Of a stretch of DNA of 64,000 bases, positions 2,588-59,071 are shown in pieces. The number at the start of each line of letters is the position of its first letter. The stretch's first letter is position 1. The DNA comes from Candidatus Sulfotelmatobacter sp. (GTDB taxonomy: Bacteria; Acidobacteriota; Terriglobia; Terriglobales; Acidobacteriaceae): positions 5,426 to 69,425 of the forward strand of contig DATGFC010000041.1 in assembly GCA_035309485.1 (NCBI GenBank), read 5' to 3'. The position numbers and the translations under genes were made by a program. The notes below the pieces were generated by a model that worked only from the letters and a program-made list of their open reading frames with translations, was not told the DNA's origin and searched no databases.

Positions 2588-2830
2588 CTACTCGATAATC
2601 TCGAGTTGATAGCGCTTGTGCGCCCGATAACCGGCCGCGCTCAGCAGCGCGCGCAGCGCACGCGCCGTGCGTCCCTGGCGGCCGATCACTTTGCCGACAT
2701 CGTTCTCGGCCACTTCCAGTTCGATCATGCCATCGTCGAACTGCTCGACGAAGACTTCATCCGGCGCATCCACCAGATTCTTCGCAATCAGTTCGACCAG
2801 CGTGCGCACATCTCCGGAAGACTCAGTCAT
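2588..2830 (-). CDS. KH domain-containing RNA-binding protein (YlqC/UPF0109-like)
   Basis: 80 aa with the GKVIGRQGRTARALR KH motif, in the conserved position between rpsP and rimM. Confidence 0.88.
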   Translation of the reverse strand: MTESSGDVRTLVELIAKNLVDAPDEVFVEQFDDGMIELEVAENDVGKVIGRQGRTARALRALLSAAGYRAHKRYQLEIIE

Positions 2831-2909
2831 AGTGTCCCATTCTCAATGTGGATGAGTTGGATCCGCGGTACAGGAGTCGTCAGCCGCCATGGCTGCACTC
2901 GAGCGGCGT

Positions 2910-3161
2910 CTAGGCTGCCGGAGCCGGGGCGGCGGCCGGAGCCTTCGAGTAGAGCTTGTTCACTCGCTCCGACATTTGCGCGCCCTTCGATACCCAATAA
3001 TCCACGCGTTCGCGCTTCAGTTCGATGCTGGCAGGATTGGTGCGGGGATTGTAAGTTCCCACCACTTCCACCGGACGGCCGTTACGCGCGCGGGCCTTCT
3101 CAATGACCACAATGCGATAGTGCGGTTGTTTGCGCGCACCCATGCGCGCCAGGCGAATCAT
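2910..3161 (-). CDS. rpsP: 30S ribosomal protein S16
   Basis: MIRLARMGARKQPHYRIVVIEKARARNGRPVEVVGTYNP is a canonical S16 N-terminus. The track ORF extends upstream to 3293, but that extension does not look like protein. A GTG two codons upstream (3167) is an alternative start. Confidence 0.92.
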   Translation of the reverse strand: MIRLARMGARKQPHYRIVVIEKARARNGRPVEVVGTYNPRTNPASIELKRERVDYWVSKGAQMSERVNKLYSKAPAAAPAPAA

Positions 3162-3366
3162 TAACACGAGACGTATATCCTTGTTCCGGAAGAGTCCGGC
3201 GAGATCGAGACAAACTATTATTATGCAGGAGGTTAGGCCCAAAGGCAAGCCGTCCCTCGTGGCCGGCAGAGTCGAGCACGCCTGAATCCTCAATGGTCCT
3301 TGGAGAGAGTCCTTCGCAATTTTGCGTTATCCTTGTCACCCGGTCGCCACTCGCCGGATTTTCAGC

Positions 3367-4890
3367 ATGCGATTCCCTCGTGCCAGCGGCATTCTGCTCC
3401 ACCCCACTTCTCTTCCCGGTCCATTTGGGATCGGCGATTTCGGCGCCGAGGCTGTCGCTTTTGTCGATTTTCTCAAAGATGCCGGACAAAAGATGTGGCA
3501 GGTATTGCCACTGAATCCCACCGGATACGGCGATTCCCCTTTTCAGTGTTTCTCCGCGCATGCGGGAAATCATCTGCTGATCAGCCTCGAAAAGCTGCGG
3601 CAAGACGGAATTCTCGAACCGGAGGACTTCCGCGACCAACCCGAGTTTCCGCTGGATCACGTCGATTTCGGCCGAGTCATCGCCTGGAAGACGCCTCTGC
3701 TGAAGAAGGCTGCCGCCCGATTTCTCGCTCACGCCAGTGGAAGCGACCGGCACGAATTTGAGGAGTTTCGGGCAGGGAATGTATCCTGGCTACGTGATTT
3801 TGCTCCCTTCATGGCCTGCAAGGAAGAGCAGGGGGGGATCGCATGGAATAAGTGGCCGCGTGAGATTGCACAGCGCACTCCAGAAGGCTTGCGTACAGCC
3901 AGTGCACGCCTGGGCGAATCGGTGCGCGCCGTCGAGTATTGGCAATTTGAGTTCTTTCGAGAATGGCAGCGGTTGCGCAGCTATGCGCGCGAACGCGGAA
4001 TTAGCATCATCGGCGACATTCCCATCTACGTCGCTCTCGATAGCGCGGATGTGTGGACGAATCGCGAGTACTTCCAGTTATCGCAGGAGGGGCAGCCCTT
4101 GAAAATCGCCGGCGTACCTCCCGACTATTTCAGCGCTACCGGGCAATGCTGGGGAAATCCGATTTACCGCTGGGATAAGCTCAAGCAGGATGGCTATGGC
4201 TGGTGGGTCGAGCGTTTTCGCGCGGCACTGGAACTCTATGACGCGGTGCGCATCGATCACTTCCGCGGCTTCGAGGCGTACTGGGAAATTCCTGGGAACG
4301 AAACTACGGCGGTCCACGGAGAATGGGTGAAAGGTCCGGGCGCCGAATTGTTCGCGGTGCTCGAGCGTGAATTCGGCAATCTGCCCATTATTGCGGAAAA
4401 CCTCGGCGTGATTACCCCTGAGGTCGAGGCCATACGCCATCGTTTCCACTTCCCCGGCATGGCGATCCTGCAATTTGCCTTCGGCAAAGATCCGCAAGGG
4501 CCTTCATTCCGCCCGCATAATTATGCGCGCGAACTAGCTGCCTACACGGGAACGCATGACAATGATACGACCGTGGGTTGGTGGACGAGTTCCGGCGCAA
4601 CCGATAGCACGCGGACCGCGGAAGACGTCGCCAAAGAACAAGCCTTCGCGCGTGCCTATCTGAATCTTAAAGATGATCCGATCCAATGGGTGATGATCCG
4701 AACCATTCACGCATCCATCGCCGATCTTGCCATCGTTCCGTTACAGGACGTGCTGGGCCTGGGCAGCGACGCGCGTATGAATCTGCCCGGGACTTCCAGC
4801 GGAAACTGGCGCTGGCGGTTCAAGCCCGGCGCGCTCACGCTGGAACACGCGAAAAAATTGCGGGAGCTGGTTTTGCTGTACGATCGCTAG
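3367..4890 (+). CDS. malQ: 4-alpha-glucanotransferase (amylomaltase, GH77)
   Basis: MRFPRASGILLHPTSLPGPFGIGDFG...DHFRGF...TGTHDNDT are GH77 signatures. The start was moved to the Met at 3367 within ORF 3322..4890. Confidence 0.92.
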   Translation: MRFPRASGILLHPTSLPGPFGIGDFGAEAVAFVDFLKDAGQKMWQVLPLNPTGYGDSPFQCFSAHAGNHLLISLEKLRQDGILEPEDFRDQPEFPLDHVDFGRVIAWKTPLLKKAAARFLAHASGSDRHEFEEFRAGNVSWLRDFAPFMACKEEQGGIAWNKWPREIAQRTPEGLRTASARLGESVRAVEYWQFEFFREWQRLRSYARERGISIIGDIPIYVALDSADVWTNREYFQLSQEGQPLKIAGVPPDYFSATGQCWGNPIYRWDKLKQDGYGWWVERFRAALELYDAVRIDHFRGFEAYWEIPGNETTAVHGEWVKGPGAELFAVLEREFGNLPIIAENLGVITPEVEAIRHRFHFPGMAILQFAFGKDPQGPSFRPHNYARELAAYTGTHDNDTTVGWWTSSGATDSTRTAEDVAKEQAFARAYLNLKDDPIQWVMIRTIHASIADLAIVPLQDVLGLGSDARMNLPGTSSGNWRWRFKPGALTLEHAKKLRELVLLYDR

Positions 4891-4916
4891 ATTCACGCAC
4901 GCGGGGGCATGGTCGC

Positions 4917-6293
4917 ATGGAAAAGCCGCAGCGCAGCCTCTCTCAGTTGCTCAACATGAGCTTCGGATTCCTCGGCATTCAGTTCGGCTGGGGGCTCCAG
5001 ATGGCCAACATGAGCCCCATCTATGAATACCTGGGCGCGCGGGCAGATCAGCTTGCGTATTTGTGGCTGGCAGCGCCGATCACCGGCCTGCTCGTGCAGC
5101 CAATTATCGGCCATGCCAGCGATCGTACTTGGGGACCGCTTGGCCGCCGGCGGCCCTATTTCCTGACCGGCGCAGTTCTGAGTTCGGCAGCGTTGATCCT
5201 GATGCCGCGCAGCTCGACGCTTTGGATGGCTGCCGGACTGCTCTGGATCCTCGACGCTTCCATCAACATCAGCATGGAGCCCTTCCGCGCATTCGTGGCG
5301 GACTTACTGCCGGAATCGCAGCGCACACGCGGATTCGTCATGCAGAGTTTCTTTATTGGCCTGGGAGCCGTTTTCGCTTCGGCCATGCCTTACATCCTGA
5401 CGCACTGGTTCTCCATAAGCGATACCGCCGGATCCGCGTCGGCAATTCCTTACACCGTGCGCCTGTCTTTCTACCTGGGCGCGGCGGTTTTCTTCGTGGC
5501 GGTGCTTTACACCATTCTTACGACGAAGGAATATCCGCCGGACGATTTAGCCGAGTTCGAACGGCGGAAGAAAGACCGGCACGGGCTCGGCAGCAACGTC
5601 TCCGACATTCTCACAGCCATTCGCACCATGCCCCGCACCATGCGCCACCTTGCGCCCGTGCAGTTCTGCACCTGGCTGGGACTGTTCTGCATGTGGCTGT
5701 TCTTCGGAGTCGCCGTGGCCCGCAGCGTTTTTGGGGCGACGTCGCCACAGTCTCCGGGATATACCGAAGGCGTGAAGTGGGGCGGCATTTGCTTCGCCGT
5801 CTACTCGGCGGTGACGTTTCTGTTCGCCATGGTGCTGCCGCGAATCGCCGATGCGCTGGGGCGCAAAGCTACCCATTCCTTGTGCCTGGCCTGTGGTGGA
5901 GTGGGGCTACTTTCAGTGGCGGTCATTCACAATCCATGGGTGCTGTTTGGCCCCATGATTGGAGTCGGCATTGCCTGGGCGAGCATTCTTTCCATGCCCT
6001 ATGCCGTGCTGGTTGGCGCGTTGCCGCCGGACCGTTTTGGGGTCTACATGGGAATTTTTAACGCCTTCATCGTGATCCCCGAAATCATTGCGGGCGCCTT
6101 CTTCAACCGTGTGGTGAGCTTCCTGATTCCGCGCTTGCCCGCCACACTGGATGTGAGGCTTGCGGTCGTAATGATTGGCGGCGGAGCACTGTTACTGGCG
6201 GCTTTGCTAATGCTCAGAGTAGAAGAGAGCAGCCAGCCGGAACCTGCGGCTCGAGAGGTAGTCGCGCGCGATATAGTGGTCGCGAAAGCTTGA
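4917..6293 (+). CDS. MFS sugar transporter (GPH/SLC45-like, probable maltose/maltodextrin or sucrose symporter)
   Basis: Polytopic membrane protein with [28 protein letters not shown] and the GRRRPYF motif. It lies between malQ and a GH13 gene. The ATG at 4917 is the first plausible start. Confidence 0.8.
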
Positions 6294-40248: not shown

Positions 40249-41079
40249 TCAATACGCGTAAGGATCGATGTAGCTGGGAGCTGTGTAGTAGCCGTCCAGC
40301 CACGGAGTGGGCGTATACCACCAGTATGGAGGCCAGGCCCAGAAGGGATTCCACCAACCCCATCCCCATCCCCACCCCCAACCAAAGCCAAAGCCGAAAC
40401 CCCAACCCCATCCCCGGCCCCAGCCGCAGCCGAAGCACCCAAACGCGGGATAGAAACCGCCGCGGAAGCCGCCTCCGCGCCATCCTCCAAGCCAGGCGCC
40501 ATTGTGGAACCCCACTACGCCAGCATGGTTCGCAGCGATGTTAAAGGTAGCGCGTTCGCCCCCAAAACCGTGCCATTGGCCGTCCGCGATGGCAGCATGA
40601 GATCCAGCGCCGCTGACGGATCGTACCATCGACCCCGCGGCACCTCTCTCACCCCCAACCGCACCCGATCTTGCCGTTGTGGCCCCTGCGGGTGATCTTT
40701 GAAAGGAATGCCACCCGGGAGAGGCATCCCTCACCCCGTGCCCTTCCGACGCCCAAGGATGGGACGACACCGAACGGTTCATAGAAGAGGGGCCACCCAT
40801 GCCGGGACCGCGTGCGCCGTATGAGCCCCGCCCGCCGTATGATCCCACCCCTCCGCGATAACCGCCGCCACCATACGCGCCGTGGTATCCCCCGCCAACA
40901 TGGGAGCCTCCTCCATAACCTCCGCCATGGAAGCCGCCTCCACCGCCGGCATGCATGCCTCCGCCTCCGCCTCCAGCGTGGCCCCCACCGTGTTGGGCTA
41001 CCGAAGGCGTGGAGAAACATAGGACTGTAATGGACGCAACTGCAGCGAGAAACAGCTTAAGCAAGGTGGGTTTGCTCAT
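40249..41079 (-). CDS. Secreted low-complexity protein: Gly/His/Tyr-rich N-terminal half and a (Gly-Trp/Phe)n plus Trp/Tyr/Pro-rich C-terminus
   Basis: Signal peptide MSKPTLLKLFLAAVASITVLCFSTPSVAQ, then HGGGHAGGGGGGMHAGGGGGFHGGGYGGG, ending in GWGRGWGWGFGFGFGWGWGWGWGWWNPFWAWPPYWWYTPTPW. Confidence 0.65.
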   Translation of the reverse strand: MSKPTLLKLFLAAVASITVLCFSTPSVAQHGGGHAGGGGGGMHAGGGGGFHGGGYGGGSHVGGGYHGAYGGGGYRGGVGSYGGRGSYGARGPGMGGPSSMNRSVSSHPWASEGHGVRDASPGWHSFQRSPAGATTARSGAVGGERGAAGSMVRSVSGAGSHAAIADGQWHGFGGERATFNIAANHAGVVGFHNGAWLGGWRGGGFRGGFYPAFGCFGCGWGRGWGWGFGFGFGWGWGWGWGWWNPFWAWPPYWWYTPTPWLDGYYTAPSYIDPYAY

Positions 41080-41215
41080 TGCTCCCTCCACCTGAACGGC
41101 GGTTTTATCGAGCCTGGGGCAGGCCAAACCGCTCTAATGGGATCCTACCCTGATTTGGAACACCAATCCAAGCGGGAAGTTGTCGTGCATTCGAGGAAAA
41201 TTGCTCGGGATGGAC

Positions 41216-51211: not shown

Positions 51212-51712
51212 CTACCGCCCCTGCTCCCCGCCCACCTCGCAGTACTTTCCGCGGAAAAACAGCAGCGGCTTGCCTTCGTGCACGATCACGTCTTCGACTT
51301 CGGCGATGAAGATCGTGTGATCTCCAGCCACTTCGGCGGAGTGCAAGCGGCATTCGAGATACGCGAGCGAACCGCGCAGCATGGGCGTGCCGTGAAGGGT
51401 GCGGTCGAAGCGCGCTCCAGCCTCGGCCTCGGCGTTTTCGTGGTCTCGCTCGGGGCGCGCGTAATACTCGGAGATAGCGCGCTGTCCTTCGGCCAGGACA
51501 TTGATGCCGAAACGCTTCTTGGCGTGCAGGTGCGCGTGCGTGCGGGTGGTGTGGTCAACGCATACCAGCACCAGCGTAGGATCGAGCGACACCGACGCAA
51601 AAGCGTTGGCTGTCATGCCGTGGACCGTGCCTTCGAGGTCGACCGTAATGATGGTGACTCCGGTAGCAAACGCTCCCATGGCCTTGCGGAAGTCAGTTGG
51701 GGTCAGCGGCAT
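51212..51712 (-). CDS. Flavin reductase family protein (FMN-binding split barrel)
   Basis: FRKAMGAFATGVTIITV...GMTANAFASVSLDPTLVLVCVD is typical of the flavin reductase-like domain. Confidence 0.88.
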   Translation of the reverse strand: MPLTPTDFRKAMGAFATGVTIITVDLEGTVHGMTANAFASVSLDPTLVLVCVDHTTRTHAHLHAKKRFGINVLAEGQRAISEYYARPERDHENAEAEAGARFDRTLHGTPMLRGSLAYLECRLHSAEVAGDHTIFIAEVEDVIVHEGKPLLFFRGKYCEVGGEQGR

Positions 51713-51924: not shown

Positions 51925-53061
51925 GTGAAGACGCAGGCTGCAATTTCGCGCGAAGAAGCGGTTCGCCTGATTCGCTGCGCGGACCGGGATCTGCCGGAGC
52001 TGCTCGAGGCCGCGCAGGAGGCCAGAGATGCGTTCAAACCCGGCGCCATCACCTATTCGAAAAAGGTTTTTCTACCCCTGACGAATCTCTGTCGTGATTA
52101 TTGCGGGTACTGCACGTTCCGGAAGGATCCCGGCGAACCAGGCGCGCACACCATGCTGCCTGATGAAGTGCTGGCAGTCGCTCGAGCCGGGGAGCAACTC
52201 GGATGCACCGAGGCCCTGTTCAGCTTGGGCGATAAGCCGGAGTTGCTGTTTCCCGAGATGCGCGAGACACTTCGTCAACTCGGGTACAAATCGACTCTGC
52301 ATTATCTCGAGGCGATGTGCGAGCTTGTGCTGCGGGAGACCACCTTGCTGCCGCATCCCAATCCGGGGCTGCTGAGCTCCGAGTGGATTGCGCGACTGGC
52401 GCAGGTTTCGCCCAGCATGGGGCTTATGCTGGAGACTACGAACGCGGCGCTGCTGGCTTCCGGGGCGGCGCATGATAACGCTCCCGATAAAGTTCCCGCA
52501 AAGCGGCTGCGCACCATCGAAGAGGCGGGCAAGCAGGGCGTTCCGTTTACCACGGGATTGCTGATCGGCATCGGTGAATCCCCCGAGGATCGCGTCGATA
52601 CGCTGCTGGCGATCGGCAAGTTGCAGGAACGCTTCGGGCACATTCAGGAGGTCATTGTGCAGAATTTTCGCGTGAAGCCCGAGGTCCCCATGGCCCGCTG
52701 GCCGGAGCCTTCCCGCGGTGAGATGCTGCGGGCTGTGGCGGTAGCTCGCTTATTACTGCCTGAGGTGAATATTCAGGCTCCGCCCAATCTTTCTGCACCG
52801 TACTATGAAGAGTTGATTGACGCCGGGATTAACGACTGGGGAGGGATTTCGCCGCTGACCCCCGATTTCATCAATCCGGAAAAGCCTTGGCCGTACCTGG
52901 AGCAGCTTCGCCTGCGCACCGAGGCCAGGGGATTTGAGCTGCGGCAGCGCTTGCCGGTCTATCCGGAATTCGTGGCTGCAGTGGTGAACCGGCCGGGCTT
53001 GTTGGCCGATCGAGTGCGTGCCGCATCTGGCGAGGACCAGCTGGCGCGGAGGGCTGCATGA
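51925..53061 (+). CDS. cofG: 7,8-didemethyl-8-hydroxy-5-deazariboflavin (FO) synthase subunit CofG (radical SAM)
   Basis: GTG start. It carries the CRDYCGYCTF radical-SAM cluster motif and is followed by cofD with an ATGA overlap. Confidence 0.88.
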   Translation: MKTQAAISREEAVRLIRCADRDLPELLEAAQEARDAFKPGAITYSKKVFLPLTNLCRDYCGYCTFRKDPGEPGAHTMLPDEVLAVARAGEQLGCTEALFSLGDKPELLFPEMRETLRQLGYKSTLHYLEAMCELVLRETTLLPHPNPGLLSSEWIARLAQVSPSMGLMLETTNAALLASGAAHDNAPDKVPAKRLRTIEEAGKQGVPFTTGLLIGIGESPEDRVDTLLAIGKLQERFGHIQEVIVQNFRVKPEVPMARWPEPSRGEMLRAVAVARLLLPEVNIQAPPNLSAPYYEELIDAGINDWGGISPLTPDFINPEKPWPYLEQLRLRTEARGFELRQRLPVYPEFVAAVVNRPGLLADRVRAASGEDQLARRAA

Positions 53062-54044
53062 TTTGCGTTTTGAGCGGCGGGACCGGAGGCGCGAAGTTCG
53101 TCGATGGTTTGCGCCAGGTCATGCCCGCGGAAGAGATTACGCTGGTCGTCAACACCGGCGACGACCTGCTGTGGTGGGGCCTGTACGTTTCCCCCGACAT
53201 TGACTCGATCACCTATGTCCTTTCAGGAATGCTGAGCCGGGAGCGGGGATGGGGCGTGAAGGGCGATACATTCCTTTGCTTGCAGGCCATGGGACAGCTG
53301 GGCGAGCCCACATGGTTTCACACCGGAGACCGCGATCTGGCGATGCATCTGCTGCGCTCGCGGCTGCTGGCCGAAGGCAAAACGTTGCTGGAAGCGACCA
53401 AAGTGATCTCTGACAAACTCGGGGTCAAGGCACGGGTGCTGCCCATGAGCAACTCGCGGGTGGAGACCCGCGTGGATACGCCCATCGGCGAGTTGAGCTT
53501 CGAAGAATATTTTGTGCAGCGCTGGTACCAGGATCCAGTCAAGTCGGTGCGCTTTGCCGGCGCTTCGGATGCGGAGCCGGCGCCGGGAGTGATCGAGGCA
53601 ATTACGTCTGCCGATGCCGTGATCGTCGCGCCAAGCAATCCGGTGACGAGCATTGGCCCGATTCTGGCGGTCCCTGGGATTCACGACGCGCTGCTGCGTG
53701 CACGCGGAAAAGTCGCGGCGATCAGCCCGATTGTGGGCAACGCGCCGGTCGCGGGTCCGGCGGGCATTCTGATGCAGGCGCACGGGCTGCCCTGCTCCAT
53801 TGGCGGCGTGGCCCACGCGTACGAAGATTTTCTGGACATTCTGGTCTGCGATACGCGCGACGCCCGTGCGGCCGATATGCTGCGCCAGAATGGCCTACGC
53901 GTGCACTGCACGCAGACGATTATGCGCAGCTCCGACGATAAGGCCGCGCTGGCGCGCGAAGTGCTGGCCTGCCTGGCAGCGGACGCATCCAGCGACAAAC
54001 CTGCCCCGGCCGTTCCTCTCCCAGCTTCGGACTCCCAACCGTGA
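53058..54044 (+). CDS. cofD: 2-phospho-L-lactate transferase (FO phosphotransferase)
   Basis: MICVLSGGTGGAKFVDGL...VNTGDD is characteristic of CofD/FbiA. Confidence 0.9.
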   Translation: MICVLSGGTGGAKFVDGLRQVMPAEEITLVVNTGDDLLWWGLYVSPDIDSITYVLSGMLSRERGWGVKGDTFLCLQAMGQLGEPTWFHTGDRDLAMHLLRSRLLAEGKTLLEATKVISDKLGVKARVLPMSNSRVETRVDTPIGELSFEEYFVQRWYQDPVKSVRFAGASDAEPAPGVIEAITSADAVIVAPSNPVTSIGPILAVPGIHDALLRARGKVAAISPIVGNAPVAGPAGILMQAHGLPCSIGGVAHAYEDFLDILVCDTRDARAADMLRQNGLRVHCTQTIMRSSDDKAALAREVLACLAADASSDKPAPAVPLPASDSQP

Positions 54045-54697
54045 TCCTGGTTCCCATCAAAGACACTGCGGCGGCGAAACAGCGGCTGGCAGCGGTGCTC
54101 GATCAATCTTCACGCACGGACCTGGCGCGTGCCATGCTGCACGATGTGCTCACTGCATTGCATCTCTGGAAGAACCGCCCGCCGGTCGGCATCGTGACCG
54201 GCGACTCCTACGCCAGCAATCTGGCGGCGGAGTATGGATTCGAGATCATTCCGGACCGCGACAATCCCGGAGAGACCGGAGCCATCGAGATGGCGACGCG
54301 TGCGTGCGTGGAGCGCGGGATAGCGGAGACACTCGTGATTCCGGCTGACATCCCGCTGCTTCAAGCTTGGGAATTGGAAGAAGTTTTGCGGAGCGCGCCC
54401 TCCCAAGGCAGCGTGCTGGTTCCTGCCGGCGATGGCCGCGGCACCAACGCGGCTCTGCGGCGGCCGGCCGATTTGTTTCCTTTGCGTTTTGGCAACGACA
54501 GCTTCAAGCCGCATCATGCGGCGGCGCAGGCCACGGGCAAACCCTGCGTCGTGCTCAAGCTTCCCGGAATCGCAGTCGACGTGGACAATCCCGCCGACCT
54601 TCTGCAACTGATTTCCTTGCCGGGTGAAACCCGGGCGCAAAAGTTGGCCCGGACATGGAATTTGACCGAACGCTTGCAGGCCGCGAGATCGTTGTGA
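54041..54697 (+). CDS. cofC: 2-phospho-L-lactate (or PEP/3PG) guanylyltransferase
   Basis: The GTG start overlaps the cofD stop (GTGA). ILVPIKDTAAAKQRL...GDGRGTNAL is CofC/FbiD-like. Confidence 0.85.
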   Translation: MILVPIKDTAAAKQRLAAVLDQSSRTDLARAMLHDVLTALHLWKNRPPVGIVTGDSYASNLAAEYGFEIIPDRDNPGETGAIEMATRACVERGIAETLVIPADIPLLQAWELEEVLRSAPSQGSVLVPAGDGRGTNAALRRPADLFPLRFGNDSFKPHHAAAQATGKPCVVLKLPGIAVDVDNPADLLQLISLPGETRAQKLARTWNLTERLQAARSL

Positions 54698-55470
54698 ACA
54701 AGCGTGCATCCTCCAAAGTCCACGAGGTTCGGCTGATTCCCATCCTTGTTCAAGACGATATTCAGGCGGGAGATTCCATCCCCTTTAAATTGCTGGACTC
54801 CATGCGCTCGCAAAGGCTGAAGTTCCAGGCCGGGGACGTTCTCGTCGTAAAACATAAGATCGTCTCCAAGTCTGAAGGGCGACTGATCGATCTGTCTACG
54901 ATTCAGCCGTCGCCAGAGTCGGTGGAGTGGGCAAAGCAGTATGATCTCGACGCGCGCGTGATCGAACTGGCACTGCGGGAAAGCCGCTCGGTGATCCGCC
55001 GCAAGAACGGGGTACTGATCACCGAGACCCATCACGGATTCTTGTGCGCGAACAGCGGCGTCGATATGTCGAACGTGGACGGGGGCGGACACGCTGTGCT
55101 GTTGCCGGAAGATGCGGATCGATCCGCCGCCGACCTGCGGCGTGTCCTGAAAAAACGCACCGGGGTTTCCATCGCCGTGATCATCAGCGACAGCTTCGGC
55201 CGGCCCTGGCGCGAGGGGCTGACTGACTTTGCCATTGGCATCTCCGGGATGAAGCCCCTGCGCGACGATCGGGGACGGCGCGATTCCCAGGGCTACAAAC
55301 TGAAGGCTAGCATCGAAGCCGTCGCCGACGAATTGGCATGCGCAGCGGGTCTGGTATGCGGCAAGCTCAATCGTGCTCCCGCGTGCCTTGTGCGGGGGTT
55401 CCAGTACCAGGCAGGCGTGGGCGGAATAAAGGAACTGTTGCGGCCTCCGGAAACCGATCTATTTAGGTAA
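54694..55470 (+). CDS. cofE: Coenzyme F420-0:L-glutamate ligase (stand-alone, no fused nitroreductase domain)
   Basis: VVKHKIVSKSEGR...GFLCANSGVDMSNV...VIISDSFGRPWREG are CofE motifs. The GTG at 54694 overlaps the cofC stop (GTGA). The track start at 54655 is the alternative. Confidence 0.85.
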   Translation: MNKRASSKVHEVRLIPILVQDDIQAGDSIPFKLLDSMRSQRLKFQAGDVLVVKHKIVSKSEGRLIDLSTIQPSPESVEWAKQYDLDARVIELALRESRSVIRRKNGVLITETHHGFLCANSGVDMSNVDGGGHAVLLPEDADRSAADLRRVLKKRTGVSIAVIISDSFGRPWREGLTDFAIGISGMKPLRDDRGRRDSQGYKLKASIEAVADELACAAGLVCGKLNRAPACLVRGFQYQAGVGGIKELLRPPETDLFR

Positions 55471-55558
55471 GACTTCCGCTACACTGGGAGAACGTGCTGG
55501 CGCGAGTTTTGACTCCACCGGCAGAGACCTCGCAAGTCGCTTCTCGATGGAGAGGATT

Positions 55559-56791
55559 ATGCACGCCGAACTTTCTCTCTCGGAGCTGGAAAGCTTTCCT
55601 TCGCTGGATTGGCGCGACATTGCTCCCCGCGTGACTCCTTCCGTGCGCGGCTCTCTCGAAAAAATTCTGGAAACGCAAAATGGTGCTTCACTTTCTCTCG
55701 AAGAGTGTTACGCGCTCGCGAATTCGGAAGGTGACGATCTGCTGGGATTGCTCGTGGCCGCGAACCTGCTACGTGCGGAACTCGTTGGGAACATCGTTAC
55801 GTACGTGGTCAATCGCAATATTAATTTCACGAATATCTGTTTTGTGGGATGCAAGTTTTGCGCCTTCAGCCGCGGGCCGCGTGAGGCTGACACTTACTTT
55901 TTAACCATGGAGCAGATCGGGCAGAAAGCGCGCGAGGCTTGGCAACTGGGCGCGACCGAGGTTTGCATTCAAGGCGGGCTGCCGCGCGATCTGCCCAAGT
56001 TTCATTATCGTGACGTTCTGCGGGCGGTGAAGCAATCGGTGCCGCAGATGCATATTCACGCCTTTTCGCCCATGGAGATCGTTTATGGCGTGGAACTCAC
56101 CGGCATGCCGCTGGCCGACTATCTTTCGATGCTACGCGACAACGGCCTAGGCACCCTTCCGGGGACAGCCGCCGAGATTCTCGATGACGAAATTCGGCAC
56201 ATCCTGTCGGCCAATAAGCTTTCCACTGCTCAATGGATTGAAGTGATCCGCACGGCTCATCTCTGCGGCATTCGCAGCACCTCAACCTTGATGTATGGCC
56301 ACGCGGAGAAGCCGGAGCATTGGGTCAGGCAGTTGCATCTCTTGCGCGAGATCCAGTATGAGACCGGCGGCTTCACCGAGTTCGTGCCTCTGGGTTTCGT
56401 TCATCAGAACACACTGCTCTTTCATCAGGGACTGGCGCGGTCCGGGCCGACGCTGGCCGAGCATCTCAAGGTGCACGCGCTGGCCCGCTTGATGCTGGCG
56501 GGATCCATCAACAACATTCAGGTTTCGTGGGTGAAGTTGAACCGGAGGCTATCGCAGCTTTGCCTGCACGCGGGCGCGAACGATTATGGCGGCACGCTCA
56601 TGGAAGAAAACATTTCGCGCGAGGCCGGAGCCACCGCCGGGCAGTACACCAGCCCGGAAGATTTTCAAGCGCTAATTCTGGAAGCCGGGCGTATTCCAGC
56701 CGAGCGCAACACCACCTACTCGCGCATCCACATCAAAATGCCGGTGGAGGAATTCACCGCGGAGCAGTCGCTCCAGGCTGAGTTTGCATGA
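55559..56791 (+). CDS. cofH: FO synthase subunit CofH (radical SAM)
   Basis: NICFVGCKFCAF cluster motif. The ATG at 55559 is preceded by the ribosome-binding site GGAGAGG. The ATG at 55547 is the alternative. Confidence 0.88.
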   Translation: MHAELSLSELESFPSLDWRDIAPRVTPSVRGSLEKILETQNGASLSLEECYALANSEGDDLLGLLVAANLLRAELVGNIVTYVVNRNINFTNICFVGCKFCAFSRGPREADTYFLTMEQIGQKAREAWQLGATEVCIQGGLPRDLPKFHYRDVLRAVKQSVPQMHIHAFSPMEIVYGVELTGMPLADYLSMLRDNGLGTLPGTAAEILDDEIRHILSANKLSTAQWIEVIRTAHLCGIRSTSTLMYGHAEKPEHWVRQLHLLREIQYETGGFTEFVPLGFVHQNTLLFHQGLARSGPTLAEHLKVHALARLMLAGSINNIQVSWVKLNRRLSQLCLHAGANDYGGTLMEENISREAGATAGQYTSPEDFQALILEAGRIPAERNTTYSRIHIKMPVEEFTAEQSLQAEFA

Positions 56792-57492
56792 GCGCGCATG
56801 ACGTCAGCCCAGTTCGCCCCATCGCCATCATTGGAGGCACCGGCGCTGCGGGCATGGGCCTGGCCTTGCGCTGGGTGCGCGCCGGAGAGACTGTCATCAT
56901 CGGATCGCGCGAGGAAGCTCGCGCCCGGCAGGCTGCGGCCAGCATTCAGCGCAGGGTCGGCGAGCATGCCCGGATTTCCGGCAGGGAGAACAGTTCCGCC
57001 TGCGCCGCCGCGGACATCCTGATGTTGACTGTCCCATTTGAAGGGCAGGCGTCGCTGATCAAGAAACTCAAGCCCTCGATTACCCCGGGCAGCATTCTGA
57101 TTGATGCCACTGTGCCTCTGGCTGCGGGACTCGGCGGGCGCGCGTCACGGACTCTTGGCGTATGGCAGGGATCCGCCGCCCAGCAGGCCGCCGAACTCGT
57201 CCCCGACGACGTCAGCGTAGTAGCCGCGTTTCACAACGTCTCCGCTGATCTGATGGGAGGAGATAATCCGCTGGACTGCGACGTAATCGTGTGCAGCGAT
57301 GATCCCGACGCGGCGCAACTCACTCGCGATCTCGCCGCCAAGATTCCCGGCATCCGCCCGATCGATGGCGGCAGGCTGGAGAATGCGCGCATCGTCGAAC
57401 AGATTACTGCCTTGCTGGTCGGCCTCAACATGAGGCATAAAGGCCACAGCGGAATCCGCATCACCGGATTGCCGCCCACCGCGTACCGCTGA
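56788..57492 (+). CDS. npdG: NADPH-dependent F420 reductase
   Basis: IAIIGGTGAAGMGLALRWVRAGETVIIGSR is a Rossmann N-terminus of the NpdG/Fno family. It has an ATGA overlap with cofH. Confidence 0.85.
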   Translation: MSAHDVSPVRPIAIIGGTGAAGMGLALRWVRAGETVIIGSREEARARQAAASIQRRVGEHARISGRENSSACAAADILMLTVPFEGQASLIKKLKPSITPGSILIDATVPLAAGLGGRASRTLGVWQGSAAQQAAELVPDDVSVVAAFHNVSADLMGGDNPLDCDVIVCSDDPDAAQLTRDLAAKIPGIRPIDGGRLENARIVEQITALLVGLNMRHKGHSGIRITGLPPTAYR

Positions 57493-57520
57493 CTGCACCC
57501 TCCCCAAGGAGCCTGTTGCT

Positions 57521-59071
57521 TTGAGCCAGAACCAGAACCTCGACGCGGCGCGCCAGTATCACAGCGGAACCAAGCATTCCTATGTCAGCATCCGCATGCA
57601 TCCGCATTCCCTCGACTGGGAAAATAAGCCGCTGCTGTTCAAGATTTATCCCACATTGGAAGTGACGCGGCTGCCTCGGGATTTTCAGGACACCGGGGTT
57701 CCAGCGCTGACCGCGATTGCCGCCACGCCCATTGGCGGGCAACGAGAGGCCATTCCCGACCTGGAAACGCTGGCCCAACTGCTCTTCTTTTCTGCCGGAG
57801 TCACCAGAAGCAAGAAGTACGAGGGCGGTGAAGCATTCTTTCGCGCGGCCGCCTGCACCGGCGCGCTGTACGAAATCGATCTCTACGTCGTGTGCACCGA
57901 TCTTCCGGCGAAAATTGGGCCCGGGCTTCCCGCCGGCCTCTACCACTTCGGCGCGGCCGAGTTCGGATTGCGCCAACTGCGGGCGGGAGACTATCGGCAG
58001 GCGGTCGCAAACGCCTCCGGGAATGATCCCTCGATTGCGCATGCCCCGGTGACCATCGTCTGCACCGGCACGTACTGGCGCAATGCATGGAAATATCATT
58101 CGCGTACCTACCGGCACTTTGGCTGGGACAACGGGACCATCCTGGCGAACCTGCTGGCCATCTCCGCCGCCTCGAAGCTTCCGGCCAAAGTCATTTCCGG
58201 TTTCGTGGATTCAGAAGTGAACGCGTTGCTGAGTCTAGATACGAAGCGCGAAGTCGCGTTCTCGATGGTTGCCATTGGACATCAGGAAGCCGAGCCGGCA
58301 AAATCGCCTGAGATTTACCCGCTGGAACTACCGATCGTCCCCTATTCCAGGGAAGAGGTGGACTATCCGGCAATGCGGAAGATGCATGAGGCCTCGTCCT
58401 TGGACTCCGCCGCCGAAGTCGAGGCGTGGCGCGGGAAGACAGCGCCTCATAATGATCCGCCAAGTAAGGGCGAGACGACATCCCTGCGATTGCCCGAAGA
58501 CTCACGCGTTCCTCGCGATACCATTGAGCAAGTCATCTCGCGGCGAGGTTCGACAAGACAGTTCGCCCGCGATCCCCTCACCAAGGCGCAGCTTTCTTTG
58601 ATCCTCGATCGCGCGACCCGAGGCGTTCCTGCAGATTTCCTCGATCCCTTTGGCAGCCATCTCAACGACCTGTATTTGATCGTCAACAATGTGCACGGGC
58701 TCGACGCCGGAGCCTACTTCTATCACTGGGAGAAGAAGTATTTCGAACTGCTCAAGGCGGGAGATTTCCGCGAAAAGGCGGGCTACCTTGGGCTGGAACA
58801 GCAGATTCCGGCGGATGCGTCAGTGGACGTGTTTTTCCTGGCCGACCTGCCGAGAATTCTCGAGCGCTACGGAAATCGCGGCTACCGGGCTGTCCAGTTA
58901 GAAGCGGGGATTTTGGGCGGCAAACTCTATCTCGGGGCCTACGCGCAGCGGCTTGGAGCGAGCGGCCTGACGTTCTACGACGATGATGTGGTCAGCTTTT
59001 TCTCCCCGCACGCGCGGGGAAAGAGCGCAGTCTTTCTGGTTGCACTGGGACGGAGCGCGTCGCGGAAGTAA
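57521..59071 (+). CDS. SagB/ThcOx-type two-domain nitroreductase-family dehydrogenase
   Basis: TTG start with the ribosome-binding site aaggag. It contains YHSGTKHSY, ACTGALYEIDLYVV, RRGSTRQFARDPLTKAQLSLILD and GYRAVQLEAGILGGKLYLGAYA...LTFYDDDV. Confidence 0.8.
   Translation: MSQNQNLDAARQYHSGTKHSYVSIRMHPHSLDWENKPLLFKIYPTLEVTRLPRDFQDTGVPALTAIAATPIGGQREAIPDLETLAQLLFFSAGVTRSKKYEGGEAFFRAAACTGALYEIDLYVVCTDLPAKIGPGLPAGLYHFGAAEFGLRQLRAGDYRQAVANASGNDPSIAHAPVTIVCTGTYWRNAWKYHSRTYRHFGWDNGTILANLLAISAASKLPAKVISGFVDSEVNALLSLDTKREVAFSMVAIGHQEAEPAKSPEIYPLELPIVPYSREEVDYPAMRKMHEASSLDSAAEVEAWRGKTAPHNDPPSKGETTSLRLPEDSRVPRDTIEQVISRRGSTRQFARDPLTKAQLSLILDRATRGVPADFLDPFGSHLNDLYLIVNNVHGLDAGAYFYHWEKKYFELLKAGDFREKAGYLGLEQQIPADASVDVFFLADLPRILERYGNRGYRAVQLEAGILGGKLYLGAYAQRLGASGLTFYDDDVVSFFSPHARGKSAVFLVALGRSASRK

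What the first reader, a model, noticed from the sequence alone, without database searches (positions are those of the whole stretch)
57521..59071. Two-domain SagB-type nitroreductase directly after the F420 genes: candidate separate dehydro-F420-0 reductase
This 516-aa protein with two nitroreductase-like halves follows npdG after 28 nt and has its own strong ribosome-binding site. Its recognisable segments are YHSGTKHSY...ALYEIDLYVV and RRGSTRQFARDPLT...GYRAVQLEAGILGG...TFYDDDV.

In mycobacteria the nitroreductase-like C-terminal domain of FbiB reduces dehydro-F420-0, which is made from PEP. Here CofE lacks that domain.

A separately encoded nitroreductase-fold enzyme in the cluster could supply that step, or another F420/FMN-dependent function. 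No YcaO/cyclodehydratase or precursor peptide is nearby, so a thiazole/oxazole RiPP role is unlikely.
Basis: inference. Interest (0 to 1): 0.6.

Follow-up and report, generated by a model that had tools for sequence, protein, structure and literature searches.

The report
Optional F420-linked two-domain SagB flavoenzyme
The last gene of this soil acidobacterium's coenzyme F420 operon encodes a two-domain flavoenzyme found almost only in genomes that can make F420, but close relatives have lost it while keeping every F420 gene, so it is more likely an optional F420-linked enzyme than the pathway's missing reductase.

Summary
A 516-aa ORF (57521-59071, TTG start, AAGGAG 9 nt upstream) lies 28 nt after npdG at the end of cofG-cofD-cofC-cofE-cofH-npdG. 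Both halves are SagB-type nitroreductase folds. CofE lacks an FbiB-type domain, and the genome has no YcaO.

The F420 link is real. Close orthologues occur in 49 cofD-positive and 1 cofD-negative genome of 201 in the class, and in 5 of 5 cofD-positive genomes elsewhere in the phylum. About 38 species share this gene order, and four other lineages place the gene beside cof genes in different arrangements.

The specific role as the dehydro-F420-0 reductase is weakened:
- The gene was lost at least twice inside its own clade, with all six F420 genes left intact.
- 35 of 84 cofD-positive genomes in the class, and 17 of 22 outside it, lack the gene. No sampled class genome has an FbiB-C-type gene.
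- Four near-complete cofD-positive genomes have no nitroreductase-fold gene scoring above Pfam's cut-off.
- Most orthologues are not next to cof genes.
- By fold and motifs it belongs with the SagB/ThcOx/McbC oxidases, not FbiB.

Best reading (about 0.45): an accessory FMN enzyme that depends on F420. The reductase reading keeps about 0.22. This scan has noted the same idea before on other DNA.

The parts
57521..59071 (+). Two-domain SagB/ThcOx-type nitroreductase-fold gene (516 aa, TTG start), the subject of the finding
   Evidence: ORF list and translation. TIGR03605 160 bits in two stretches and PF00881 in two stretches. The model has pLDDT 85.6 and pTM 0.91. Best structural match is 3eo7.
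57506..57511 (+). Shine-Dalgarno AAGGAG, 9 nt before the TTG start, inside the 28-nt npdG-SagB spacer
   Evidence: Read directly from the sequence. The same 28-nt spacing is seen in L061, L063 and L066-L069.
57557..57580 (+). N-terminal YHxxTKHS motif (residues 13-20), a family hallmark shared with 3eo7
   Evidence: Y13, H14, T17, K18 and S20 are invariant in 19 orthologues. The motif aligns with YHERTKY of 3eo7.
57758..58279 (+). N-terminal SagB-type domain (residues about 80-253)
   Evidence: TIGR03605 best stretch covers residues 80-253, profile positions 1-172 of 173.
58088..58096 (+). W190-K191-Y192, equivalent to the Lys-Tyr motif of azoline oxidases
   Evidence: Invariant in the orthologues. 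Aligns with the ...FKYRYRGYR... stretch of McbC and with WKYH of ThcOx. It falls in a low-confidence loop of the model, residues 189-192.
58280..58522 (+). Variable inter-domain linker (residues about 254-334)
   Evidence: Lower conservation in the alignment and lower model confidence.
58541..58564 (+). RRGSTRQF, the nitroreductase-type FMN-phosphate-binding motif at the start of the C-terminal domain
   Evidence: R341, R342, G343, S344, R346 and F348 are invariant. Its role in FMN binding is inferred from general knowledge of the superfamily.
58523..59056 (+). C-terminal nitroreductase/SagB-type domain (residues about 335-512)
   Evidence: PF00881 best stretch covers residues 339-492. This is the second stretch aligned with 3eo7.
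56788..57492 (+). npdG/fno, NADPH-dependent F420 reductase, immediately upstream
   Evidence: TIGR01915 219 bits against a cut-off of 149.8.
51925..56791 (+). cofG (51925-53061), cofD (53058-54044), cofC (54041-54697), stand-alone cofE (54655-55470) and cofH (55547-56791)
   Evidence: Every gene scores above its NCBIfam equivalog cut-off.

Best explanation
This is an accessory FMN-dependent oxidoreductase of the SagB/ThcOx branch of the nitroreductase superfamily. Its two fused halves form a pseudo-dimer within one polypeptide.

Its function depends on coenzyme F420, but it is not a core step of F420 synthesis.

Proposed mechanism (inferred):
- FMN is held by the RRGSTRQF motif of the C-terminal half.
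- The flexible loop carrying the invariant Lys191-Tyr192 of the N-terminal half acts as acid/base.
- The upstream Fno (NpdG) makes F420H2 from NADPH. F420H2 reduces the FMN.
- The reduced FMN then reduces an activated C=C or C=N bond in a small molecule that is not yet identified. Alternatively, the enzyme runs the reverse dehydrogenation.

The gene rides at the end of the F420 operon in this clade. In the same way, F420-dependent PPOX-class enzymes ride in the F420 clusters of other Acidobacteriota. It is kept or lost according to need.

Shown: the fold, the motifs, the restriction to F420-gene-bearing genomes, the recurrent but optional synteny, and the repeated loss. Inferred: FMN binding, use of F420H2, and the type of substrate.
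For: Link to F420:
- Close orthologues (at least 50% identity) occur in 50 of 201 class genomes, and 49 of these have cofD. The table is 49/1/35/116, Fisher p about 1e-22; the within-family combined p is 1.4e-5.
- Outside the class, 5 of 5 orthologue-bearing genomes, from three families, have cofD. The base rate there is 22 of 274.
- The order cofG-D-C-E-H-npdG-SagB is conserved in about 38 species genomes.
- Four other lineages have different cof-adjacent arrangements.
- cof genes are the only recurrent neighbours in the class-sample loci, and no non-cof neighbour recurs in more than 13 of 55 loci that lack cof genes.

Accessory rather than core:
- Three same-genus genomes carry the identical cluster and flanks without this gene, and they show no remnant of it.
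- The CofG+D+H tree nests them inside the SagB-bearing clade, which requires at least two losses. Their branch lengths are normal.
- 35 of 84 cofD-positive genomes in the class, and 17 of 22 outside it, lack the orthologue.
- 55 of about 97 orthologue loci examined have no cof gene within the flanks held, up to 10 kb.
- A TIGR03618 F420-dependent PPOX gene sits beside the orthologue in three of the cof clusters. These clusters therefore carry enzymes that use F420, not only enzymes that make it.

Enzyme class:
- TIGR03605 scores above its cut-off.
- The nearest folds are 3eo7, ThcOx, BmdC, McbC and AlbA.
- The Lys-Tyr motif aligns with McbC and ThcOx.
Against: - No nitroreductase-superfamily enzyme other than FbiB-C/FbiE is known to bind F420 (my own knowledge plus the review PMC8498797). 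That precedent favours the rival reading.
- No substrate can be named, and no conserved partner gene points to one.
- Four contexts outside the phylum (Nitrososphaerota, Binatia and two others) show no F420 gene nearby. The cofD status of those genomes could not be tested.
- More distant two-domain paralogues (30-34% identity) occur in genomes without cofD or cofH. The wider family is therefore not tied to F420.
- Co-occurrence among related genomes overstates independence.
Confidence: 0.45

Rival explanations
1. It is a stand-alone dehydro-F420-0 reductase, an analogue of FbiB-C/FbiE recruited from the SagB branch. CofC/CofD would use phosphoenolpyruvate, and this enzyme would use FMNH2 to reduce the enolpyruvyl C=C of dehydro-F420-0 before or while CofE adds glutamates. 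Because it is often absent, it would have to be a facultative 'polishing' enzyme alongside a 2-phospholactate route or another reductase.
For: - It is the last gene of the biosynthetic operon, 28 nt after npdG, in about 38 species.
- It is the only nitroreductase-superfamily gene detected in this genome, and there is no FbiB-C-type hit.
- Orthologues are confined to cofD-positive genomes.
- The only known F420-binding nitroreductase-fold enzymes do exactly this reaction, and a stand-alone form exists in Thermomicrobium roseum (PMC8498797, citing Braga 2020).
- Bashiri et al. state that the reductase of CofE-only organisms is unknown (PMC6450877).
- A Lys-Tyr pair beside FMN could protonate the alpha carbon after hydride transfer, as in ene-reductases (inference).
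Against: - At least two independent losses occurred inside the clade, with all cof genes intact and evolving at normal rates.
- 35 of 84 (class) and 17 of 22 (outside the class) cofD-positive genomes lack it. None of the 201 class genomes has a TIGR03553 match above the cut-off, and the weak hits do not track cofD.
- The cofD-positive genomes G108, G115, G016 and G375 (96-100% complete) have no PF00881 gene above the cut-off. Their F420 pathway therefore needs no nitroreductase-fold enzyme, and the same solution should be available here.
- Most orthologues lie far from cof genes.
- There is no sequence hit to FbiB-C at E<=1, and FbiB-C is not among the top 50 fold matches.
- CofC sequence or assays cannot show that PEP is the in-vivo substrate (PMC8764529).
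Confidence: 0.22
2. It has no chemical link to F420. It would be a free-standing FMN dehydrogenase or oxidase of the SagB/ThcOx type that desaturates a heterocycle, peptide or other metabolite using O2 or another acceptor. Its co-occurrence with F420 genes would reflect shared ancestry, shared ecology or operon hitch-hiking.
For: - All characterised near relatives by fold are oxidases that do not use F420: ThcOx, McbC, BmdC and AlbA.
- The Lys-Tyr oxidase motif is kept.
- More than half of the orthologue loci, and 4 of 4 contexts outside the phylum, have no F420 gene nearby.
- Two-domain paralogues exist in genomes without F420 genes.
Against: - 54 of 55 orthologue-bearing genomes have cofD, across ten families. 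This includes families where cofD is in the minority: f1 at 8/28, f7 at 9/27, and 22/274 outside the class.
- There are five different cof-adjacent arrangements, which hitch-hiking by descent does not explain.
- The genome has no YcaO or other cyclodehydratase, and no candidate substrate gene recurs nearby.
Confidence: 0.15
3. It is a TOMM/azole-RiPP dehydrogenase (a true SagB) acting on a ribosomal peptide made elsewhere in the genome.
For: TIGR03605 scores above its cut-off, and the Lys-Tyr motif is present.
Against: - The genome has no YcaO.
- No cyclodehydratase, precursor or exporter recurs near any of about 100 orthologue loci.
- The related model TIGR04511 scores far below its cut-off, 105 against 240.
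Confidence: 0.03

Closest known systems
PDB 3eo7 (Ava_2154, 'putative nitroreductase', Anabaena variabilis; structural-genomics entry of unknown function)
   Same: It has the same two-domain architecture over its full length. phmmer gives E 8e-43 with both halves aligned, and Foldseek gives E 5e-36 with TM 0.73/0.77. It shares the N-terminal YHxxTK motif.
   Different: Identity is only about 25%. It has Arg-Tyr where this protein has Lys-Tyr. To my knowledge cyanobacteria make FO but not F420, so it is probably a different orthologous group. Its function is unknown, so it does not help assign one here.
SagB / McbC / ThcOx / BmdC azoline oxidases (TIGR03605 SagB-type dehydrogenase domain)
   Same: It has a nitroreductase fold, and the HMM scores above the family cut-off. 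The Lys-Tyr motif aligns. These are the next-best fold matches after 3eo7.
   Different: The genome has no cyclodehydratase or YcaO partner and no precursor peptide. The protein has two fused SagB-type halves rather than forming a homodimer or carrying an RRE-type N-terminal domain. It is linked to F420 genes, which is not reported for this family in the literature searched.
FbiB C-terminal domain and stand-alone FbiE (dehydro-F420-0 reductase; TIGR03553; PDB 4XOO/4XOQ as cited in PMC8498797)
   Same: It belongs to the same superfamily fold, probably binds FMN, and is encoded with F420 biosynthesis genes.
   Different: TIGR03553 gives no hit at E<=0.01. No PDB sequence hit to FbiB appears at E<=1, and FbiB is not among the top 50 fold matches. 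This protein has two domains and 516 aa, whereas TIGR03553 models the FbiB-C domain in 194 positions. It is dispensable in F420-gene-bearing relatives.
F420-dependent PPOX-class (FDOR-B, TIGR03618) genes embedded in F420 clusters
   Same: It shows the same genomic behaviour: an optional oxidoreductase that sits in or beside cof clusters in some lineages and elsewhere in others. In L053, L055 and L058 both genes are in the same cluster.
   Different: The fold is unrelated (split beta-barrel against nitroreductase fold). Use of F420 is established for that family and only inferred here.

Membership tests
SagB/ThcOx-type dehydrogenase (TIGR03605 domain family) | Sequence matches the family HMM above the curated cut-off | tested here: met
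   160.3 bits against a cut-off of 78.4, in two stretches.
SagB/ThcOx-type dehydrogenase (TIGR03605 domain family) | Nitroreductase fold closest to the solved azoline oxidases | tested here: met
   Foldseek finds ThcOx, BmdC and McbC at E 2e-9 to 2e-6, directly after 3eo7 and two uncharacterised nitroreductases.
SagB/ThcOx-type dehydrogenase (TIGR03605 domain family) | Conserved Lys-Tyr motif near the flavin | tested here: met
   K191-Y192 is invariant and aligns with the FKY of McbC and the WKY of ThcOx. The C-terminal half has R-G-Y instead.
SagB/ThcOx-type dehydrogenase (TIGR03605 domain family) | Bound FMN | not testable with these tools
   An invariant RRGSTRQF motif is present. Flavin content needs purified protein.
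TOMM / azole-RiPP dehydrogenase (functional SagB) | Encoded with a YcaO or cyclodehydratase and a precursor peptide | tested here: not met
   The own genome has no PF02624 hit. None appears among the recurrent neighbours of about 100 orthologue loci.
FbiB-C / FbiE dehydro-F420-0 reductase (TIGR03553) | Sequence membership in the FbiB C-terminal family | tested here: not met
   The genome gives no TIGR03553 match at E<=0.01. There are no FbiB chains among the PDB sequence hits at E<=1 or among the top 50 fold hits.
FbiB-C / FbiE dehydro-F420-0 reductase (TIGR03553) | Fused to or encoded beside cofE across its members | tested here: inconclusive
   It is in the same operon in about 38 species, and near cofE in L053, L055 and L058. 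In 55 other orthologue loci, and in 4 of 4 contexts outside the phylum, no cof gene lies within the flanks held, up to 10 kb.
FbiB-C / FbiE dehydro-F420-0 reductase (TIGR03553) | Present wherever the PEP-based pathway operates, that is, indispensable to F420 producers of the lineage | tested here: not met
   It was lost at least twice with the cof genes intact. It is absent from 35 of 84 and 17 of 22 cofD-positive genomes. Four of these genomes have no nitroreductase-fold gene above the cut-off.
FbiB-C / FbiE dehydro-F420-0 reductase (TIGR03553) | F420-binding residues of FbiB-C, and dehydro-F420-0 reductase activity | not testable with these tools
   No reliable alignment to FbiB-C could be obtained. 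Activity needs an enzyme assay.
3eo7-like two-domain nitroreductase family | Full-length two-domain homology with the N-terminal YHxxTK motif | tested here: met
   phmmer E 8e-43 with both halves aligned. TM 0.73/0.77. About 900 clusters at 50% identity score E<=1e-30.

The most novel reading that the evidence does not exclude
The protein is a second, independently recruited dehydro-F420-0 reductase that arose from the SagB branch of the nitroreductase superfamily. It would serve CofE-only bacteria, and perhaps Nitrososphaerota and Chloroflexota, which hold 44-47% identical homologues. It would be facultative because a parallel 2-phospholactate route or another reductase exists. That would partly answer the question left open by Bashiri et al. 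2019: how do organisms without FbiB finish the F420 side chain?
Probability: 0.22. Interest if true: 0.75.

Novelty: new variant of a known kind. Interest (0 to 1): 0.45.

Why it matters
How organisms with a stand-alone CofE obtain the saturated lactyl side chain of F420 is an acknowledged gap (PMC6450877). This gene is an obvious candidate, and this scan has flagged it repeatedly.

The comparative evidence here shows two things. The family really is tied to F420-capable genomes, which I found nowhere in the literature I could search. It is also dispensable for keeping the F420 pathway.

That redirects the experiment. The protein should first be tested as an F420H2-using flavoenzyme, and second as a facultative dehydro-F420-0 reductase. 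Either outcome would assign a first function to a large, structurally solved but uncharacterised two-domain family (3eo7-like, about 900 clusters at 50% identity). It could also add a new enzyme class to the F420 toolbox used in biocatalysis.

The finding that several near-complete acidobacterial genomes carry F420 genes with no nitroreductase-fold protein is useful in itself. In this phylum the missing step, if there is one, is not done by that fold.

Tried and rejected
1. Complementary distribution with FbiE. I expected genomes with cofD but without the orthologue to carry an FbiB-C-type gene. None of 201 has a match above the cut-off, and the weak hits do not track cofD. Rejected.

2. A link to FO rather than F420. 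This was suggested by the cofG-cofH adjacency in L055 and L060 and by the cyanobacterial origin of 3eo7. Genomes with the 30-34% paralogues have no CofH above the cut-off, and several orthologue-bearing genomes have cofD but no CofH above the cut-off. Rejected.

3. A conserved partner gene that would reveal the substrate. All-against-all clustering of neighbours in 18 and then 55 loci found nothing beyond lineage-level synteny: a DEAD-box helicase, a NuoI-like ferredoxin, an agmatine-deiminase-like gene and a nitrilase-like gene, each in at most 13 of 55 loci.

4. Remnants of the gene in the congeners' gaps. None at E<=10.

5. Literature on SagB plus F420. The only substantive hit was a false match to 'SAG' with a footnote letter. 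A search for the two-domain family or 3eo7 found nothing relevant. Braga 2020 (PMC7267189) is not held.

6. cofD status of the genomes outside the phylum. Those records are not held.

8. Promoter and terminator scan. It found no more sites than shuffled sequence gives, and nothing between npdG and this gene.

9. Direct comparison with FbiB-C residues. Not attempted, because no trustworthy alignment could be obtained.
Full report
**1. Observation**

The window holds a seven-gene, same-strand array:
- cofG 51925-53061
- cofD 53058-54044
- cofC 54041-54697
- cofE 54655-55470
- cofH 55547-56791
- npdG 56788-57492
- a 516-aa ORF at 57521-59071 with a TTG start

The six F420 genes each score above their NCBIfam equivalog cut-offs. 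CofE is a bare ligase of 271 aa that covers only the N-terminal half of the FbiB-type model. The spacer after npdG is 28 nt and holds AAGGAG 9 nt before the start. The ORF matches the SagB-type domain model TIGR03605 twice (160 bits, cut-off 78.4) and PF00881 twice.

**2. Anatomy**

Nineteen orthologues (53-87% identical) align over their full length with 66% mean column identity. Four conserved blocks stand out:
- an N-terminal YHxxTKHS motif
- RAAxCTGALY and YWRNAWKYxxRTYRHFGWDNG in the first half
- RRGSTRQF at the start of the second half
- GNRGYRAxQxEAG and GLTFYDDD further along the second half

The AlphaFold model is confident (pLDDT 85.6, pTM 0.91). The WKY loop, residues 189-192, has low confidence.

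The best structural and sequence match is 3eo7, a two-domain 'putative nitroreductase' of unknown function: phmmer E 8e-43, Foldseek E 5e-36, TM 0.73/0.77. Next come two uncharacterised nitroreductases, then ThcOx, BmdC, McbC and AlbA. K191-Y192 aligns with the Lys-Tyr of McbC and ThcOx. FbiB-C is not found by sequence at E<=1, nor among the top 50 folds. TIGR03553 finds nothing in the genome.

The enzyme therefore belongs to the SagB/ThcOx oxidase branch, not the FbiB branch. The genome is 5.59 Mb and 94% complete. It has no YcaO, and this gene is its only PF00881 match.

**3. Is it linked to F420?**

Yes, at the level of whole genomes.

In an even sample of 201 genomes of the class, orthologues at 50% identity or more occur in 50 genomes, and 49 of those have cofD. 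The exception is a 530-contig assembly. cofD itself is present in 84 of 201. The 2x2 table is 49/1/35/116, Fisher p about 1e-22. Because related genomes are not independent, I also tested within families. All orthologues lie in cofD-positive genomes in f1 (3 of 3, cofD 8/28), f7 (5 of 5, 9/27), f8, f11 and f12, and 13 of 14 in f3. The combined p is 1.4e-5.

In a 301-genome sample of the phylum, five genomes outside the class, from three families, carry an orthologue. All five have cofD, against a base rate of 22 of 274.

More distant two-domain paralogues (30-34% identity) occur in genomes with neither cofD nor cofH. The link is therefore a property of this orthologous group, not of the whole family.

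**4. Synteny is real but optional**

Every species genome and metagenome contig whose orthologue is about 65% identical or more has the same order: flavin reductase | cofG-D-C-E-H-npdG-SagB | MFS, PilZ. This covers about 38 species of Candidatus Sulfotelmatobacter and kin, and the 28-nt spacer is the same where I read it.

Four other lineages place the gene next to cof genes in different ways:
- SagB-npdG-cofE-cofD-cofC (L058)
- SagB divergent from npdG-cofD-cofC-cofE (L053)
- SagB followed by cofG-cofH (L055, L060)

In contrast, 13 of 17 class-sample loci and 42 of 80 species loci (55 loci in all) have no cof gene within the flanks held, up to 10 kb. The five orthologues outside the class lie on other contigs or at least 0.5 Mb from cofD. 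Four contexts outside the phylum have no cof gene nearby: Nitrososphaerota, Binatia and two long contigs.

No neighbour other than cof genes recurs beyond one lineage. In three of the cof-adjacent clusters, a TIGR03618 F420-dependent PPOX-class gene sits beside the orthologue. Acidobacterial cof clusters therefore recruit enzymes that use F420. Adjacency alone does not show a biosynthetic role.

**5. The natural experiment**

The three other sampled species of the same genus (G094, G108, G187, all 100% complete) have the same cluster and the same flanks, but nothing between npdG and the MFS gene. The gap is about 12 bp in G187. In G108 an unrelated ORF fills it. No remnant of the gene is detectable. 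They have no orthologue anywhere in the genome and no FbiB-C-type gene.

A maximum-likelihood tree of concatenated CofG+CofD+CofH nests these clusters inside the SagB-bearing clade. One is a pair and one is a separate single row, so well-supported branches force at least two changes, best read as losses. Their terminal branches are of ordinary length. The F420 genes therefore stay under selection after the loss.

G108 has no PF00881 match at all. The same holds above the cut-off for three more cofD-positive genomes that lack the orthologue: G115, G016 and G375, which are 96-99% complete. Across the class, 35 of 84 cofD-positive genomes lack the orthologue, and none of the 201 has a TIGR03553 match above the cut-off. 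The weak hits are generic nitroreductases, and they are most frequent in families without cofD.

**6. Interpretation**

The dehydro-F420-0 reductase idea rests on a sound precedent. FbiB-C, and the stand-alone FbiE of Thermomicrobium, are nitroreductase-fold enzymes (PMC8498797). There is also a real gap: Bashiri et al. cannot explain how CofE-only organisms would reduce dehydro-F420-0 (PMC6450877).

If this enzyme filled that gap, close relatives with intact pathways should not be able to lose it repeatedly without a replacement. Nor should most F420-gene-bearing Acidobacteriota do without it and without any nitroreductase-fold protein. Whatever solves the side-chain problem in those genomes should also be available here, whether a 2-phospholactate route or an unrelated reductase. 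That would make this enzyme redundant for the step. CofC assays and sequences cannot tell which substrate is used in vivo (PMC8764529).

The pattern seen is strict confinement to F420-capable genomes, patchy presence within them, optional clustering with cof and fno genes, and no other partner. This is the pattern of an accessory F420-dependent enzyme.

I therefore favour, at about 0.45, an FMN enzyme that takes reducing equivalents from F420H2 (supplied by the upstream Fno) and reduces an unidentified unsaturated substrate, or runs the reverse reaction. The facultative reductase reading keeps about 0.22. A function chemically unrelated to F420 keeps about 0.15, and a true TOMM role about 0.03. 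The remainder is unassigned.

**7. Novelty**

Databases already annotate the protein as a 'SagB/ThcOx family dehydrogenase', and a homologue's structure is solved. I found no paper that links this family to F420.

It departs from the SagB kind in three ways: it has no cyclodehydratase partner, its two halves are fused, and it is restricted to F420-capable genomes. I class it as a new variant of a known kind.

This scan has raised the same idea on other DNA (e1-1452167, e1-4110168). A follow-up on this same window suggested that the seventh gene may be the missing reductase (e1-3973140). My tests weaken that suggestion. An analogous 'optional passenger' verdict was reached for an Ldh_2 gene at the end of a Rokubacteria F420 operon (e1-3305717).

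**8. Limits**

- All genome-level statistics come from one phylum.
- The cofD status of genomes outside the phylum could not be tested.
- FMN binding, use of F420H2 and the substrate are all inferences.

Noticed in passing
L042 (G108:C1) locus coordinates about 4545-5911: In the congener G108, the site where this gene would sit holds an unrelated 268-aa ORF with a hydrophobic N-terminus (possibly secreted). It lies between the MFS gene and npdG.
   Followed up: partly
L066-L069, locus coordinates about 5759-6751 in L066: In one Sulfotelmatobacter-like lineage, a 330-aa aldo/keto reductase gene is inserted between cofE and cofH in the F420 operon. This is another optional oxidoreductase passenger.
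   Followed up: partly
L053 8698-9171(-), L055 11573-11974(+), L058 19144-19545(-): A 133-157-aa TIGR03618 F420-dependent PPOX-class oxidoreductase lies in the cof clusters that also hold the SagB-type orthologue, in three other acidobacterial families.
   Followed up: yes
class-sample genomes G048, G056, G012, G096, G103: These genomes have cofD above the cut-off and the SagB-type orthologue, but no CofH match above the curated cut-off; only MqnC/MqnE-level hits appear. They may import FO, or they may use a divergent FO synthase.
   Followed up: no
window 54655-54697: The longest cofE ORF overlaps the end of cofC by 43 nt. The Pfam match starts only at residue 35, and relatives call cofE 7 nt after the cofC stop (L063). 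The true start may therefore lie further downstream.
   Followed up: no
window 40249-41127 (-): A 292-aa ORF encodes an extremely Gly-rich protein with a signal-like N-terminus and a GWGWGWGW/aromatic C-terminal tail. I ran no family search on it.
   Followed up: no
window 51212-51712 (-): A PF01613 flavin reductase (StyB/HpaC-like) is transcribed divergently from cofG. It is conserved at that position throughout the clade, including in the genomes that lost the SagB-type gene.
   Followed up: partly
L063/L064 locus coordinates 2716-4497: In one lineage, cofG is called as a 593-aa product, against 378 aa here. This is either an N-terminal extension or an over-called start.
   Followed up: no
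L096 and P0083: Two contigs carrying the same npdG-SagB-MFS-PilZ order, or a 76% identical protein, are labelled Candidatus Eisenbacteria and Candidatus Dormibacteraeota. They are probably mis-binned acidobacterial contigs.
   Followed up: no
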